Assembly (NCBI GenBank): GCA_963804995.1
Contig: CAWDSK010000009.1
Location: forward strand, 326,168 to 390,167
Length of the DNA stretch: 64,000 nucleotides
Direction: 5' to 3'
Source of the DNA: an uncultured Acidobacteriota bacterium
Lineage (GTDB): Bacteria; Acidobacteriota; Terriglobia; UBA7540
Below, piece by piece: positions 7,468 through 63,997 of this stretch. The position numbers and the translations under genes were made by a program. The first letter of the stretch is position 1, and each line of letters opens with the position of its first letter. The notes beneath the pieces are model-generated. The model ran no database searches, had not been told where the DNA came from, and saw only the letters and a list, made by a program, of their open reading frames with translations.

Positions 7468-10400
7468 TCAGAACGTATACTTCATCGCAAACTGCAAGAT
7501 ACGCGGATCGCTTGCACTCTGGATCACGCCGAAGGTGGAATCCTGCAGGTTATTGTCCGGAGTGCCGAAATTCGCGTGGTTAAACAGGTTGAAGAATTCG
7601 AACCGCAGCTCCACGCGGTGGCTCTCGTGCCGTGGGACGTTGAAATATCGCGTCACCGCAGCATCCACATTGAAATATCCAGGCCCCACCTGCGCAGCCT
7701 GTCCCGAGTTGCCAAACGCGCCGATGGTATTAGGAACAAAGGCGGCGGGGTTGAGCCACTGCCGGGTATTCATATCTTTCACGTAATTACTTGCCCCGGG
7801 GACAACGTTGGCGCGATCCAACCCGACTGCGGTCAGGGAATTATCGAGGCCGGAGCTCACGCCGTACCATATTCCACTGTGGATGGCAACAATCGGCGAG
7901 AACTGCCAGTTGCCCAGCAGCCGGTTGGTCCACAGACCGGCAAACTTGGGCGAGGTAGCAACAAAAGACATATTGAACACGTGGCGGAGGTCAAAGCCGC
8001 AATTGCCGCGGTCGGCGTTGCGATTGTAGGGATTCTGGTTTTGCGGACCATTGATGTCGCCACCGAAATCTCCTTCGTCAATGCAGTGTGACCAAGTGTA
8101 ATTGGTCAGGAACGTGTAATTCTTGCTGAAACGATGCTGGGCGGAAAGGAATAGCGAGTTGTACTCACCATTTGATCCGTCGTCCGCCACAGCAAGGGTG
8201 GAAAGCTGCGCGCCGTAGACGGGGTTTTCCAGATAAAGCAGCCGCCTCTGGGCGGTGTTGTCTTCCGTCGAGCAAGGTGACCCGCCGCACATTCCGGGAA
8301 TATAAACGGCGGGGTTCGCCGCCTCACCGGTCCAGATATGGGTCGTCTTGTTTCCAACGTAAGTCGCCGAAACCATCCAATTGGGTGTCAATTGACGCTG
8401 ATAGCTAATGTCCCATTGCTGCATGCTGGTGGGCAACCCTTGCGTCGGAAACGTAAGATAGGCGCTCGGGAAGAAAGGTACATTCGTGGAAGGGACAACG
8501 GGAACCGGGAACGGGTTGCCCCCGGGGAATCCTTGGTAGGGATTCGTAAAGCCTCCCACAGGGGCGGTAAAATTGACGGCGCTTGCCCAGGGAGAGTTCT
8601 CACCCGCGTCGGTGTAATAAAAGGTCTGGGGCGTGTGATAGAAGATGCCGTACCCCACACGGATCGTCTGTTTGCCGTTGCCGGCAGGATCCCAGACCAG
8701 CCCTACGCGGGGCTCGAGATCCGAGAGGCGGCTGAAACTAAAGGCGTTCGACGGATACCCTGGATCACCTATGTAAAAGATTCCGGGCGGCGCGTTCACG
8801 AATACCTTGCTCTTCGTGCCGGCCAAGTATGCCGATGGCGAAAAGTACGTCCCGCCGATGTGATGCAGCTCACTCATGGGCAGGTAAGGTTCATAGCGCA
8901 AACCCACCTGAAGATTGAAATGCTTGGTAACCTGGACATTGTCCATCGCATAAGCGCCAATGTAGAGCTCCCGTTCGTCCCCGGGGTCGGGAGCACCCTG
9001 CCGGAAGCTATTATCCCGCCCCAGCAGAAAATCCAGCAATGCGTCATTCGAAAATTGCCCGTTAAAGTTGATCAGGCCATCACCCAGATGGCCAGTCTGA
9101 TTGTTGAGCTGGTTGCGAACCACGTCCCCACCGAATGCGAGGTGATGGCGGCCATGCATAATATCCACATCATCCGCAAATTGATAGGAGTTGGTGTTGA
9201 AATAGGACGGCGAGCAGGAACTGCAGCCCGAGGCGAATTTACCGCTAACCGTTACCACCAGACCGTCGGGGAAATAGGAAAACATGTTTACGCCGAGCTT
9301 GGTCGGACTGAGGTAATCCAGCGCCGGCCCGCGCGTAATGGCCAGCCGCGACCAGGTGAGATGGGCAGAATTGAGTACAGTGGGACTGATCGAATAGGTG
9401 TCGCCCAACACAAAGGAGTGGTTGCGGTCAATGACTCCGCGTTCGGTGGTTACCAGTACATTGCCGCCAAAGGGGGCCGGACTTTCATAGTCCGCCAAGT
9501 AATAACGCCCAAAGAAATTGTGCTTGGGACTTAGGGTCCAGTCAACTCGACCGATGTATTCATCTTCCCTGGCGGGCACGGGAATTGCGTAGGTCACCAT
9601 CCCGCAGGGATCAGTGGAGAGGGGTACGTATTTGAGCAAGTTTAGAGCCTGCTGATTGTAAGTACTCGGATCGACATAATTGCTTGTGTAAGGCTGCTGC
9701 GTGGCCGGGTTGATGATCGTGCGTGCCTCGCCATTGGACTGGCAGGCGGCGGATTCCATAGCGCTCCAATCGCCATTCAGGACCGCCTGCGTGGGTACGT
9801 AAGCGATTGAGGAGGGCGAGGCGGTTCGTTCGCGGTCCCCTTGGTACCCGAAAAAGCCAAAGAGTTTATCCTTCTTAATCGGGGCGCCAATCGTCCCGCC
9901 AAACTGGTTTCGTTTCAGACTGTCGTGCGTGTCTGCGAAGAAATTCCGGGCATTGACATCGCCGTTACGCAGGAACTCGAACAGATCCCCGTGTACGCGA
10001 TTGGTGCCGGACTTGGTCACAACGTTGACCACCGCGCCGGGATGCAGCCCATAGCGAGCCGAAAGGCTGTTGGTCTGAACGCTGAATTCCTGAAGGGCAT
10101 CTGGGAAGGGGAAGGGGAGATTGATATTCGAAAAGGAGTCGTTGTTGTCCCCGCCATCCATCAGATAGTTTGTCGCGTCCGGCTGTCCACCCGCAACCGC
10201 AATCGAATCCGCAGTAGGCCAGTTCTTACTGCCGGTGAGATCATTGGCTTGGGTAAGCGCCGGGCCAATGTTGTTGGCGGATCCGGCCAAAATGACCAAG
10301 TATAGGGCGTTGCGGCCGTTTAATGGCAGATCGACCACGCTGCGCTCATCGATGACCTGGGAGACGGAAGTAGTTTGTGTCTGCACCATGTTGGCGCCGG

Positions 10401-10776
10401 CGGTGACCTCAACTTGCTGGGTCACCTGTCCTACCTGCAGCTTCACGTTGATGGTAGGGCTGTCGTTGACCTGAAGTATGATTCCCGTCTGAACATAGGT
10501 TTGGAATCCGCTGACCTGTACTTCCAGCCTGTAAGGTCCAACGGGAAGATTGGGGAGCAGATAGGTACCATCCGCCCCGCTAACCGTTTCACGCGACACC
10601 TTCGTATTTGTCTGCGTGCCGATTACCTTCGCACCGGGGACGGCTGCCCCGCTGGGGTCCTCCACGGTGCCTGAAATCTGTGCGCTTGCCACGGCTTGGC
10701 CCCATAGACGTGGGGCATACCCAGTTAGTAGGAACAATGCGGCTACCAACAAAGGTCCCGCAATTCTTCTGGTCAT
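7468..10776 (-). CDS. TonB-dependent receptor, Oar-like, with carboxypeptidase-regulatory N-terminal domain
   Basis: ISGTVEDPSGAAVPGA, DLPLNGRN, TKSGTN and RNQFGG motifs; C-terminal PRILQFAMKYTF. AAGGAGG RBS precedes ATG 10776. Confidence 0.93.
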   Translation of the reverse strand: MTRRIAGPLLVAALFLLTGYAPRLWGQAVASAQISGTVEDPSGAAVPGAKVIGTQTNTKVSRETVSGADGTYLLPNLPVGPYRLEVQVSGFQTYVQTGIILQVNDSPTINVKLQVGQVTQQVEVTAGANMVQTQTTSVSQVIDERSVVDLPLNGRNALYLVILAGSANNIGPALTQANDLTGSKNWPTADSIAVAGGQPDATNYLMDGGDNNDSFSNINLPFPFPDALQEFSVQTNSLSARYGLHPGAVVNVVTKSGTNRVHGDLFEFLRNGDVNARNFFADTHDSLKRNQFGGTIGAPIKKDKLFGFFGYQGDRERTASPSSIAYVPTQAVLNGDWSAMESAACQSNGEARTIINPATQQPYTSNYVDPSTYNQQALNLLKYVPLSTDPCGMVTYAIPVPAREDEYIGRVDWTLSPKHNFFGRYYLADYESPAPFGGNVLVTTERGVIDRNHSFVLGDTYSISPTVLNSAHLTWSRLAITRGPALDYLSPTKLGVNMFSYFPDGLVVTVSGKFASGCSSCSPSYFNTNSYQFADDVDIMHGRHHLAFGGDVVRNQLNNQTGHLGDGLINFNGQFSNDALLDFLLGRDNSFRQGAPDPGDERELYIGAYAMDNVQVTKHFNLQVGLRYEPYLPMSELHHIGGTYFSPSAYLAGTKSKVFVNAPPGIFYIGDPGYPSNAFSFSRLSDLEPRVGLVWDPAGNGKQTIRVGYGIFYHTPQTFYYTDAGENSPWASAVNFTAPVGGFTNPYQGFPGGNPFPVPVVPSTNVPFFPSAYLTFPTQGLPTSMQQWDISYQRQLTPNWMVSATYVGNKTTHIWTGEAANPAVYIPGMCGGSPCSTEDNTAQRRLLYLENPVYGAQLSTLAVADDGSNGEYNSLFLSAQHRFSKNYTFLTNYTWSHCIDEGDFGGDINGPQNQNPYNRNADRGNCGFDLRHVFNMSFVATSPKFAGLWTNRLLGNWQFSPIVAIHSGIWYGVSSGLDNSLTAVGLDRANVVPGASNYVKDMNTRQWLNPAAFVPNTIGAFGNSGQAAQVGPGYFNVDAAVTRYFNVPRHESHRVELRFEFFNLFNHANFGTPDNNLQDSTFGVIQSASDPRILQFAMKYTF

Positions 10777-11184: not shown

Positions 11185-11247
11185 GCTGCCTGCCGCATTC
11201 TGCTTACCGCCTACTGCTTACTGCCTTCTGCATTCTGCCTGCTGCCT
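11185..11247. repeat. Degenerate heptamer repeats (CTGCCTA/CTGCTTA-like)
   Basis: ctgcctgccgcattctgcttaccgcctactgcttactgccttctgcattctgcctgctgcct. Confidence 0.7.
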
Positions 11248-11303: not shown

Positions 11304-11349
11304 AAAAACGAAAAGCCCCTGGTTGTACGCTGACCGCACAACCAGGGGC
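11304..11349 (-). terminator. Rho-independent terminator
   Basis: 12-bp stem GCCCCTGGTTGT/ACAACCAGGGGC followed by TTTTCGTTTTT on the minus strand. Confidence 0.85.
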
Positions 11350-11468
11350 CCGGGTAACTGATGGGTTTGGCTTCCCGTTTTTCGATCGGGACGGCGCCCT
11401 GCAGCGCCTTGCCAGAAAACCCTCTCCCGCTAGAGAGAGGGACCCACGAATGCGCGCGTGCTTAGCGC

Positions 11469-11510
11469 CTAAGCCTCAGCACCCTCGCTACAGTAACTTT
11501 CGATCGACAT
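11469..11510 (-). CDS. Putative 13-aa peptide MSIESYCSEGAEA
   Basis: ATG directly follows AGAAAGGAGGTGATCC; the TAG stop lies in a GCTTAG/CTAAGC hairpin. Confidence 0.5.
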   Translation of the reverse strand: MSIESYCSEGAEA

Positions 11511-11538
11511 GGATCACCTCCTTTCTAGCGATGGGGCG

Positions 11539-11567
11539 ATAATAAGACTCCATGTCCGTCGAGTCAA
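11539..11567 (-). promoter_or_regulatory. Sigma70-type promoter
   Basis: TTGACT-N17-TATTAT. Confidence 0.75.
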
Positions 11568-11608: not shown

Positions 11609-12332
11609 TCACACTTGGTACTGACCCGTGAGGGCGCGCCAACGTAGAACCAGTAAGTCCAAAATCATGAGCAGGGAGTCGCGGAGATAATGCACTCGGG
11701 TGGCGGGGTCGTTGTTCCAGCGCACGGGAACTTCCACGATCTTTCCTCCCAGGCGCTGGATGAGAAAGAGCACTTCTGGGTCGAAGCCGAAACCTTCCAC
11801 GCGTTGCAGCTCGAAGGCGCGTCGCGTGGTCTCGCGGCGAAAGAGTTTGAATCCGCACTGCGTGTCTTGGATGCGCAGTCCCGTGAACATCCGAACCAAA
11901 AGGTTGAAGAATCGTCCTCCCCATTCGCGGAACTGCGACTGGTGAATGCCGATCAGCTCCCGCTGCAACGCCCTGGAGCCCACGGCCACGTCGGCGCCGG
12001 AGGATTCGAGCGCCCTCAGCAGCTTGTCCGCTTCTGCGATGGGGGCGGAAAGGTCGGCATCGGTGAAGAGGATGAACTCGCCGCGCGCTTCCAGCACTCC
12101 GTGCCGAACTGAAAAGCCTTTGCCACGGTTGCGATCGTTGGGAAGCACTCGGACTTCCGGGTGGCGCGCTACAACTTGCACGGTGTCGTCCGTTCGAGCC
12201 GTCATCCACCACGATCAGTTCGCTAGAGAAATTCTTCGCGCCCAAATAGCCTCGAATCGCTTCAAGTGAGCTGTGGATGCGACCAGCCTCGTTATACGCG
12301 GGGATCACGACACTCAGGAACGGTTCGGACAT
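11609..12332 (-). pseudogene. GT2 glycosyltransferase (dolichyl-phosphate glucosyltransferase-like) with a +1 frameshift at about 12193
   Basis: SVVIPAYNE...VVDDGS lies in one frame, and TDDT...NRGKG...FTDAD...DTQCGFK in another. Removing one base joins them. May be a sequencing error. Confidence 0.85.
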
Positions 12333-62084: not shown

Positions 62085-63997
62085 GTTGCGGTAGGGATAC
62101 CGGTTACCCGGTACCCCCCGCACGGATCCGTACGTGCGCTGGTTAGCGCATACGGCTCTTATCTCGGATGTGTGGCGGCGAACCGTTGGGATGGCCAAGG
62201 ATGCACAACGTGCGGAGCAGGCAACCAGCAGGCCGCAAGCTTCCCCAGTCGGTCCCAGTTGAGGCGGTGGCGTTGACTGCGTTGACGCAGTTGTGTTCGC
62301 CACAGTCGGGTCAACCGTTCCCGAAAGATTCGCAGGCGGTCGAGGTTTCCCGGTACCGCGTGATAGTTGAAGTAGCCTTGCACGACCGACCGGAGCCATT
62401 TACCCGTATCCGCGATGGGATCGTGCCGACGCTGCCGGAGTTGTTGCTTGAGTTCCTGCAACTTCCCCCGCAGGCGCTTGCTGATCGTCTTCCGCTTCAC
62501 GGTAAATTGCCCCCTCCGGTTCTTCCCGCTGATATGCGTGAAGCCCAGAAAGTCGAACGTCTCCGGCTTACCTTCTCCTCTCCGTTTCCGGTAAAGTTCG
62601 GCAAACGGCCCGAACTCGATCCGGCGCGTTTTGTCAGGATGCAGTTCCAATCCAAACTTCCCCACCCGCTCCCGGAAATCCTCCAGAAAGCGGTCGGCTT
62701 CCGTCTGCGATTGGAATCCAAGGACCGTATCGTCGGCATACCGCACCACGACCACGTCTCCCCGGGCGTGCTTCTTGCGCCACGCCTGCACCCACAGGTC
62801 AAAGACGTAGTGCAGATAGATATTCGCCAGCAGGGGCGAGACCACCGCCCCTTGTGGCGTACCCATCTCCGTCTCCGACCATTCGCCTTCCTCCCTCACC
62901 CCGGCTTTCAGCCATTTCTGGATGAGCCGGAGAATCCGGGGGTCGGCGACGCGATGCTGCACGAACTTGAGCATCCATTCGTGGGATATCGAATCGAAAA
63001 ATCCACGAATGTCCGCGTCAAGAACGTAGTTCACGTGCTTCACCGTGAGCGCGTACGAGAGCGCGTCCAGCGCTTGATGCTGGCTGCATCCCGGTCGAAA
63101 GCCATACGAGAAGCCCAGAAAGTCTTCCTCGTAAATCGCCTTGAGGATGGTGACCACGGCCTGTTGGACGATCTTGTCCTCCAGTGCCGCAACCCCCAAC
63201 GGACGTTGCCGCCCGTCGCCTTTCGGGATATACGCCCTTCGCGAGGGCTTCGCTCGGAATGCTCCGCGGTGGACCCGGCTGTGCAGATCGACGAGTCGAC
63301 CTTCCAGCCCGCTTTCATACTCCTGCCACGTCATGCCGTCTACTCCCGGTGCAGCTTTTCGCTTCAAGGCGTAAAAGCTTTCCCGCAGCAGATCGACCGT
63401 TAAGTGGTGGAGCAAGGCCGTGAACTTCATCTCCCTGTGTTCCTTCGCGGCTTTCCGCACACCCGCGAGTCCCTGGGACACGCGTGCCCCGCTCTGTGTC
63501 GGGTGCGTGTTAGGCCAACGGGTGTTCTCCTTGATCAGCGGCCTTCCCTCCTCATTCTCCGCCAACGGCTTCCCGTCTTTGTTCAAATGATTCATCGGTA
63601 CTGTTCCGCTGTCCGACTCCTCGAGAGCGTGCAGGCGGGCTGTACGGCCATCGCCTTTTCCCGCCGTCCGGCCACGATCTACGGCGGCCGGCGCCTCCGA
63701 GGTCTCCCGGTTCTCGTGCAGAAAGTGTCTAGGCGTGTCTGGGGTCTACGACTACGCAGGACTGTGCCGGAACTCGCGTTGGCGTCCCGGCCTCATGTTG
63801 CCTTCCGTTTAGTCTGAAAACGTCGGCGTCCTGATTGGACATTTTCGAAGCTCAATACCCAGCCCACCTATTCCCCTGTTTACGCTTCACCGTGCGCCTC
63901 ACGACGCCCAGCGCAAAACTCGGGGCCGAGTGGATCGCTGCTCCTTCCTCGTGAGAAATTTTCATTCTCTGCTTTCTGCCGGTTTATCCCGGCGCAC
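62085..63997 (-). mobile_element. Complete group II intron (~1.9 kb)
   Basis: 5' GTGCG at 63997; domain V GAGCCGTATGCG...CGCACGTACGGATC; domain VI ending CCCTACCGCAAC at 62085. Confidence 0.92.
62159..63595 (-). CDS. ltrA: Group II intron reverse transcriptase/maturase, no endonuclease domain
   Basis: APGVDG, RPLG, SYGFRP, GTPQG, RYADD and FDFLGF motifs; domain X GYFNY. Confidence 0.96.
   Translation of the reverse strand: MNHLNKDGKPLAENEEGRPLIKENTRWPNTHPTQSGARVSQGLAGVRKAAKEHREMKFTALLHHLTVDLLRESFYALKRKAAPGVDGMTWQEYESGLEGRLVDLHSRVHRGAFRAKPSRRAYIPKGDGRQRPLGVAALEDKIVQQAVVTILKAIYEEDFLGFSYGFRPGCSQHQALDALSYALTVKHVNYVLDADIRGFFDSISHEWMLKFVQHRVADPRILRLIQKWLKAGVREEGEWSETEMGTPQGAVVSPLLANIYLHYVFDLWVQAWRKKHARGDVVVVRYADDTVLGFQSQTEADRFLEDFRERVGKFGLELHPDKTRRIEFGPFAELYRKRRGEGKPETFDFLGFTHISGKNRRGQFTVKRKTISKRLRGKLQELKQQLRQRRHDPIADTGKWLRSVVQGYFNYHAVPGNLDRLRIFRERLTRLWRTQLRQRSQRHRLNWDRLGKLAACWLPAPHVVHPWPSQRFAATHPR

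What the first reader, a model, noticed from the sequence alone, without database searches (positions are those of the whole stretch)
11304..11567. Self-contained small RNA with a 17-nt perfect complement of the 16S 3' end, a micro-ORF and a multibranch fold
Seen on the minus strand, in order: a TTGACT-N17-TATTAT promoter; AGAAAGGAGGTGATCCA (11526-11510), whose last A starts a 13-aa ORF (MSIESYCSEGAEA); a stop inside a hairpin; nested stems (TGGGT/ACCCA enclosing CCCTCTC/GAGAGGG, and TGGC/GCCA enclosing GGCGC/GCGCC and TCCCG/CGGGA); and a 12-bp terminator. Known: TGGATCACCTCCTTTCT is the typical 16S 3' end, and normal SD sequences pair only 4-8 nt. Inference: this may be a ribosome-binding or sequestering RNA, a dual-function sRNA, or a translation-coupled attenuator for the co-oriented TonB receptor ~530 bp downstream. 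I do not recognise the family.
Basis: partly seen in the sequence, partly recalled or inferred. Interest (0 to 1): 0.8.

Follow-up and report, generated by a model that had tools for sequence, protein, structure and literature searches.

The report
Ribosome-docking mini-mRNA in Acidobacteria
This is a real, conserved small RNA gene whose start can pair with the whole tail of the ribosome's 16S RNA and which carries a 13-codon reading frame locked in a helix; it is a distant relative of RNAs already described in other bacteria, whose purpose is still unknown.

Summary
Confirmed. A single-copy, stand-alone RNA gene of about 229 nt (11532-11304, minus strand) with promoter, an 18-nt complement of the genome's own 16S 3' end, a 13-codon ORF and a terminator. 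Homologues occur in 30 of 36 family genomes, and ORF indels keep the frame. It is not an attenuator (TonB gene downstream in 0 of 42 relatives, a convergent gene in 29) and not an rrn remnant. It is a divergent relative of Rfam Ms_IGR-5: below the cut-off (12.9 vs 45 bits), but found full-length by a model built from actinobacterial members alone and bridged by a class member above the cut-off. It works like the published rreB mRNA (Hahn et al., PMC5711450), which binds 30S, is weakly translated and decays translation-dependently. Best reading: 30S docks tightly, only elongation opens the helix, and the translation event matters more than the peptide. No expression data exist here for this family. 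This scan noted the same class before on other genomes.

The parts
11562..11567 (-). -35 hexamer TTGACT
   Evidence: TTGACT in 28 and TTGACA in 1 of 29 homologues while the spacer sequence varies
11539..11544 (-). -10 hexamer TATTAT, followed by a G+C-rich discriminator
   Evidence: TAWTAT-like hexamer 17-18 nt after the -35 in the homologues
11304..11532 (-). predicted transcript of about 229 nt (5' end inferred from the promoter, not mapped)
   Evidence: sequence conservation starts and ends here
11510..11527 (-). 18-nt complement of the genome's own 16S 3' end, ending in the A of the start codon
   Evidence: duplex about -30 kcal/mol
11469..11510 (-). micro-ORF MSIESYCSEGAEA*, 13 codons
   Evidence: 13, 14 or 15 codons in 29 of 29 homologues, all ending SEGAEA*
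11476..11484 (-). 5' strand of the conserved long-range helix (inside codons E-G-A-E); overlaps an SD-like GAGG at 11486-11483
11454..11469 (-). short hairpin starting at the stop codon
   Evidence: 96% of cells paired
11428..11446 (-). strand that can occlude the extended SD in an alternative fold
   Evidence: minimum-energy fold of G000; family support mixed
11420..11441 (-). hairpin CCCTCTC/GAGAGGG with CTAGC in its loop
11373..11408 (-). two hairpins of the variable insert (GGCGC/GCGCC conserved; TCCCG/CGGGA variable)
11362..11371 (-). conserved GCCAAACCCA segment (GCC can pair with GGC at 11475-11473; ACCCA with TGGGT at 11446-11442)
   Evidence: equivalent of AAUuCC in the Ms_IGR-5 consensus
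11352..11361 (-). 3' strand of the long-range helix (one bulged U in G000)
11304..11351 (-). intrinsic terminator hairpin with U tail
   Evidence: compensatory changes in the stem

Best explanation
A stand-alone micro-mRNA that docks on the 30S subunit and is read by translation; the event of translation, not the peptide, is the working part. (1) It is transcribed from its own sigma-70-type promoter and ends at its own terminator (inferred from conservation). (2) Its 5' end pairs with 17-18 nt of the 16S tail, strongly enough to open the local folds that hide the SD (computed; 30S binding is shown only for rreB). (3) The long-range helix starts at +27 from the AUG, beyond an initiation footprint, so a docked 30S leaves it shut and the RNA compact (inferred). 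(4) Escape from so long a duplex is slow, so translation is weak (shown for rreB). (5) An elongating ribosome must melt the helix; this exposes an SD-like GAGG upstream of the last codon, which may hold the ribosome at the stop, and frees the 3' strand, after which the RNA is turned over (inferred; rreB without its start codon lives about four times longer). Net effect: the RNA stays on 30S when subunits cannot move on to elongation and is cleared when they can, so it reports, and possibly holds or shields, idle 30S subunits. The physiological output is not shown.
For: 16S pairing kept at 17-18 nt in 9 of 9 paired genomes, by G-U where letters change. ORF frame kept: 29 of 29 family homologues; among 120 pattern hits from many phyla the stop, which was not in the pattern, lies 5 codons after the E codon in 72, 4 in 28 (rreB type), 6 in 3, with no such peak in the other two frames. 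Helix: 94.8% of cells paired, 47 cells changed on both sides, slid controls 28-60%; predicted with P>0.5 in 32 of 34 family members when the SD is held open. RNA over peptide: the 17 nt spanning S-E-G-A-E and the start of the last codon are invariant in 29 of 29 while the N-terminal half varies; L302 reads EGPEA and keeps the helix by a matching change. rreB: co-sediments with 30S, weak translation, half-life 10 to 37 min when the start codon is lost, peptide unstructured (PMC5711450). Ms_IGR-5 homologues are transcribed in Streptomyces and carry ribosome footprints in mycobacteria.
Against: No transcript, ribosome or phenotype data for this family. In G000 itself the helix is weak (P 0.06 in the free RNA, 0.59 with the SD open). 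In one search the number of pairs with two-sided change (5 of 9) did not exceed shuffles (248 of 500), the changes amount to a few clade-level events, and I chose the 37 rows. The internal GAGG pairs weakly with the anti-SD in this family (-6.5 kcal/mol vs -10 to -14 in Ms_IGR-5 types, -4 in rreB). rreB shares only the SD part at sequence level, so its biochemistry is an analogy. rreB overexpression had no growth effect. Patchy in the class: model R1 found nothing in families f4 (0 of 20), f5 (0 of 20), f7 (0 of 18).
Confidence: 0.5

Rival explanations
1. The product is the 13-15-residue peptide (or the nascent chain acting on the ribosome at termination); the extended SD and the helix only keep its synthesis low.
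For: Frame, length (11-15 codons) and E at -5, A at -3 are kept across phyla. RreB and RreR are conserved within their clades (PMC5711450).
Against: No synonymous variation at the conserved codons; N-terminal half variable; Ala-to-Pro change tolerated with RNA compensation; synthetic RreB and RreR are unstructured and their overproduction had no growth effect.
Confidence: 0.2
2. A factor acting on the 16S 3' end itself: it pairs across the mature end and precursor junction of pre-30S or idle 30S and steers maturation or shields the tail from nucleases; the ORF is its release mechanism.
For: The pairing runs through CCUUUCUA, past the core anti-SD, in 6 of 6 family genomes tested; the most upstream nucleotides were the ones needed for rreB ribosome binding; single copy, stable-RNA-like promoter with G+C-rich discriminator (inference).
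Against: Mature 16S end not mapped in these organisms; rreB is far less abundant than ribosomes; absent from several families searched.
Confidence: 0.17
3. A dual-function sRNA whose variable insert or freed 3' strand base-pairs with target mRNAs in trans, gated by translation.
For: Ms_IGR-5 is catalogued as an sRNA; stable multi-hairpin insert within the family; alternative folds exist.
Against: The insert differs wholly between clades and can be as short as about 20 nt; conserved parts are those facing the ribosome or paired in cis. No target search was run.
Confidence: 0.09
4. Translation-coupled attenuator for the TonB-type receptor downstream.
For: Leader-like ORF plus terminator, co-oriented gene in G000.
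Against: TonB gene downstream in 0 of 42 relatives, convergent genes in 29; unrelated neighbours in either orientation in 21 distant loci; the TonB gene has promoter-like and SD sites of its own.
Confidence: 0.03
5. Inverted remnant of an rRNA operon end.
For: 18-nt identity to the antisense strand of the 16S end.
Against: No further similarity to the rrn; conserved promoter, ORF, helix and terminator; substitutions keep pairing rather than identity.
Confidence: 0.01

Closest known systems
Rfam RF02471 Ms_IGR-5 (Actinobacteria sRNA; function unknown)
   Same: 5' ACRC-like start, AAAGGAGGUGAUCC, in-frame short ORF ending E-x-A-x-x-stop, variable insert, AAUCC-like segment, 3' strand pairing with the last codons, terminator. 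A model from 9 above-cut-off actinobacterial members aligns this element full length; the family model R1 finds Ms_IGR-5 members at up to 37.6 bits; L309 from the same class passes the Rfam cut-off (55.2 bits) and scores 55.5 with R1.
   Different: 12.9 bits against a cut-off of 45; AUG directly after the complement (6 nt from GGAGG) rather than 10-12 nt; EGAEA instead of EVAxx; insert about 100 nt with four hairpins. Rfam's consensus structure lacks the ORF/3' helix and shows no ORF.
rreB / rreR small mRNAs (Hahn et al., RNA Biol 14:1353, PMC5711450)
   Same: Stand-alone RNA, 16-17-nt (here 18-nt) complement of the 16S end ending in the start codon region, 14-codon ORF, SD partly hidden in structure. 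The paper's primer matches the start of my alphaproteobacterial hits; those also have an ORF strand paired to a strand before the terminator (28 of 28).
   Different: Described only in Alphaproteobacteria; mostly GTG start; peptide unrelated; helix in a different register; model R2 matches rreB-type loci only over the SD.
Rfam RF01867 CC2171 (Caulobacter sRNA)
   Same: Same GAAAGGAGGUGAUCCA near the 5' end followed by an open frame of 21-33 codons; expressed in Caulobacter and Methylorubrum (bioRxiv 10.1101/2022.01.24.477521, passages).
   Different: 19.9 bits against 75; match limited to the SD; no E-x-A-x-x-stop end.

Membership tests
Ms_IGR-5 (RF02471) | Score at or above the gathering threshold (45 bits) | tested here: not met
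   12.9 bits, full-length; no match in the genome-wide search
Ms_IGR-5 (RF02471) | Detectable homology with a model built from actinobacterial members only | tested here: met
   R2: top hit in the window, 20.4 bits, E 5.7e-4; only match in the genome at E<=1, E 0.067; 14 family members 16.8-32.5 bits full length, SD-only controls at most 16 bits. The margin for G000 itself is small.
Ms_IGR-5 (RF02471) | Conserved core: extended SD, GAGGUGGC in frame, stop 5 codons on, CAGUCACC-type 3' strand, terminator | tested here: met
   Present with substitutions that keep the helix
Ms_IGR-5 (RF02471) | Occurs in Actinobacteria | tested here: not met
   Named records with this family's element are labelled Terriglobia/Acidobacteria
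rre small mRNAs (rreB/rreR) | At least 16 nt complementary to the 16S 3' end, reaching the start codon of a small ORF | tested here: met
   18 nt, includes the A of AUG
rre small mRNAs (rreB/rreR) | Stand-alone small transcript | tested here: inconclusive
   Promoter and terminator conserved; transcript not observed
rre small mRNAs (rreB/rreR) | Sequence homology to rreB beyond the SD | tested here: not met
   rreB-type loci score 7-19 bits with R1 and only the SD part with R2
rre small mRNAs (rreB/rreR) | Binds 30S, weakly translated, start-codon-dependent decay | not testable with these tools
   Shown for rreB only
CC2171 (RF01867) | Score at or above 75 bits | tested here: not met
   19.9 bits; no match in the genome
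tmRNA | tRNA-like ends and tag frame | tested here: not met
   ARAGORN finds none in the window; the genome's tmRNA is on C4
Ribosome-dependent attenuator | Conserved co-oriented downstream gene | tested here: not met

The most novel reading that the evidence does not exclude
Ms_IGR-5, this acidobacterial family and (by analogy or deep descent) the rre mRNAs form one old, cross-phylum class of ribosome-sensing RNAs with two anti-SD contacts: an 18-nt one that parks a 30S at the start, and a second one hidden in a long-range helix that only an elongating ribosome uncovers and that holds it at the stop. The RNA would thus measure, or buffer, the step from docked 30S to elongating 70S, an unrecognised housekeeping function at the 16S tail.
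Probability: 0.25. Interest if true: 0.8.

Novelty: new variant of a known kind. Interest (0 to 1): 0.48.

Why it matters
It extends a class of extreme-SD mini-mRNAs, published for Alphaproteobacteria and catalogued without an ORF or function for Actinobacteria, to Acidobacteria, and supplies the structural element (ORF end paired to the pre-terminator strand, with compensation) that makes the open question testable: double mutants can separate peptide, translation event and RNA structure in tractable hosts such as Streptomyces coelicolor, Mycobacterium smegmatis or Bradyrhizobium. The kind itself is known, and its purpose remains unshown.

Tried and rejected
Rfam at gathering level: nothing at this place. 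c-di-AMP riboswitch (the GCUGA/UCAG topology reminded me of it, from memory): no match in the genome. 6S: Rfam found none in the genome, so a divergent 6S cannot be excluded by presence elsewhere, but the anatomy does not fit. tmRNA: elsewhere. Type I toxin mRNA (long SDs recalled from memory): peptide acidic and hydrophilic, terminator not bidirectional by sequence; not pursued. Sequencing runs: no RNA holder listed, so no reads were laid. A phylum-wide exact pattern gave 7 of 301 genomes, five of them SDs of ordinary genes: the long SD alone does not define the class; in viral contigs 66 of 108 hits led into frames longer than 40 codons or not closed within the locus. Co-evolution with 16S: families with GGUGGUCC still have GGAUCACC in 16S, so wobble, not compensation. 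The helix columns had an indexing error; one search is the corrected run. The codon table was filtered on GAGGGTGC and so cannot show invariance; I cite for that. The original IGR-5 paper (Li et al. 2013) is not held. Earlier scan notes by sequence and by place: none.

Full report
Observation. The minus strand carries, in order, TTGACT-N17-TATTAT (11567-11539), a 16S-complementary stretch, the ORF MSIESYCSEGAEA* (11510-11469), several hairpins and a terminator (11351-11304). The complement to the genome's own rrn is 18 nt (11527-11510) and similarity to the rrn stops there. Of 22,311 GGAGG sites in the genome only the rrn and this site exceed 15 contiguous matches. The region folds better than 200 of 200 shuffles (z -4.93). 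It is single-copy.

Conservation. A DNA search found it in 30 of 36 family genomes and 0 of 24 outside the family. A covariance model from 29 of these (R1) found it in 19 of 19 family genomes (18 of 18 without the unpublished G444) and in other families of the class: f8 9 of 9, f9 3 of 3, f12 3 of 4, f10 7 of 19, but f4 0 of 20, f5 0 of 20, f7 0 of 18; four f3 hits were SD-only fragments. Named records carrying this family's element are labelled Terriglobia or Acidobacteria. The -35 and -10 boxes are kept while the spacer varies, and the ORF is 13, 14 or 15 codons in 29 of 29, always ending SEGAEA* (the split copy L029 was left out).

Context. In 42 relatives with flanks, the TonB-type gene (PF25183) was downstream in none; a convergent NUDIX, LOG or M20 gene was in 29; glycosyltransferase and PCMT genes lie upstream in 28 and 27. 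In 21 distant loci the downstream neighbours are unrelated and in either orientation. The RNA therefore stands alone, and the attenuator reading fails.

Structure. On a sequence-only alignment of 37 rows from several phyla, which I picked from 69 distinct rows whose 3' end my regex located (of 110 elements; rows with no or a wrong anchor were dropped), 94.8% of cells pair and 47 show changes on both sides, against 28-60% paired for slid controls; 0 of 500 shuffles reached the paired fraction or the score, but 248 of 500 reached the count of 5 covarying pairs, and the changes reflect a few clade-level events. L302 changes Ala to Pro and keeps the helix by a matching change. The helix has P>0.5 in 23 of 34 family members folded freely and 32 of 34 with the SD held open; G000 is one of the weak cases (0.06 and 0.59). 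The SD is more than half paired in 29 of 34, and opening it costs a median 9.6 kcal/mol against about -30 for the 16S duplex. In G000 the occluding fold is the minimum; its 5-bp anchor shows no two-sided change among 24 rows, so a true switch is not shown.

Wider class. An exact pattern in the phylum found a second family with the same layout (L041; 15 of 40 related genomes without the unpublished G356). The stop codon, not part of the pattern, lies 5 codons after the motif in 72, 4 in 28 and 6 in 3; 101 have an in-frame start; 19 do not fit, mostly hits inside genes. Nine of 20 tested loci pass the Ms_IGR-5 cut-off and one the CC2171 cut-off. Ten model-found elements from other families of the class all have GAGGTG/GAGGTA at the same place and read GGUGGUC in the SD; their 16S ends are unchanged, so the pairing is kept by G-U.

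Membership. This element scores 12.9 bits against Ms_IGR-5 (cut-off 45), so it is not a member by Rfam's rule. Homology is nevertheless supported: R1 finds Ms_IGR-5 members at up to 37.6 bits while in-gene hits with both motifs do not score and the 16S antisense scores 9.2; L309 passes the Rfam cut-off and scores 55.5 with R1; and R2, built from nine actinobacterial members only, gives this element as best hit in the window (20.4 bits) and only hit in the genome (E 0.067), with family members up to 32.5 bits and SD-only controls at most 16.

Literature. Hahn et al. (PMC5711450; I read abstract, methods, results and discussion, and searched the one supplement held as text; its figures and supplementary alignments were not visible and may bear on the comparison) describe rreB: 165 nt, 17-nt SD, 14 codons, bound to 30S, weakly translated, half-life 10 to 37 min on loss of the start codon, unstructured peptide, no growth effect of overexpression, function elusive; similar genes in other Alphaproteobacteria. 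Passages only: Ms_IGR-5 validated by RNA-seq in S. lividans (PMC8079986), detected in S. avermitilis (PMC8780764) and M. smegmatis (PMC10454040), with ribosome footprints in two mycobacteria (PMC4974804); CC2171 on Northerns. My ten searches showed no paper linking Ms_IGR-5 to rre, describing the ORF/3' helix, or reporting the class in Acidobacteria; the library lacks most subscription papers. Earlier notes of this scan found the class on other genomes and gave me the Hahn reference; I had reached the Ms_IGR-5 link.

Mechanism. Shown here: the conserved pairing potential with 16S, the conserved frame, the conserved helix, the lack of a conserved downstream gene. Shown for rreB only: 30S binding, weak translation, start-dependent decay. 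Inferred: the helix begins at +27, so docking leaves it shut and only elongation opens it; opening uncovers an SD-like GAGG upstream of the last codon (weak in this family, -6.5 kcal/mol) and frees the 3' strand; the RNA is then turned over. I give 0.5 to this ribosome-docking, translation-read model, 0.2 to a functional peptide, 0.17 to a role at the 16S end itself, 0.09 to a trans-acting sRNA and 0.04 to attenuator or rrn remnant.

Verdict. Real and well conserved; a new, divergent variant of a known but unexplained kind. Interest 0.48.

Noticed in passing
window 11609-12332 (-): The upstream glycosyltransferase (PF00535) is split over two frames near 12200; the off-frame 272-aa ORF that runs into the element is a by-product. 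Possibly an assembly indel.
   Followed up: no
window 7468-10776 (-): TonB-type receptor lies between the RNA and the LOG gene only in G000 (0 of 42 relatives): a recent insertion.
   Followed up: partly
window 11190-11245 (-): Short GCAG-rich repeats just downstream of the terminator; similar runs follow it in L007, L010 and L024. REP-like.
   Followed up: no
L194, L196, L283 (Acidiferrales records): About 90-nt units with the extended SD, a GAGGG(G/C)GC motif and a terminator, but without the usual in-frame start and stop; perhaps a minimal variant.
   Followed up: no
L051, L055, L060, L064 and others (viral contigs): Mini-genes with a 15-nt-or-longer 16S complement encoding 13-17-residue Lys/Gly-rich peptides, followed by terminators.
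   Followed up: no
window 63742-63962 (-): Group II intron domain match, 170 bits.
   Followed up: no
G000 whole genome: Rfam 6S model finds no match in this genome.
   Followed up: no
L311, L315, L316, L317: In these class members a second strand (GCCTCAG) can pair with the same last codons as the conserved 3' strand, overlapping it, which suggests strand exchange.
   Followed up: no
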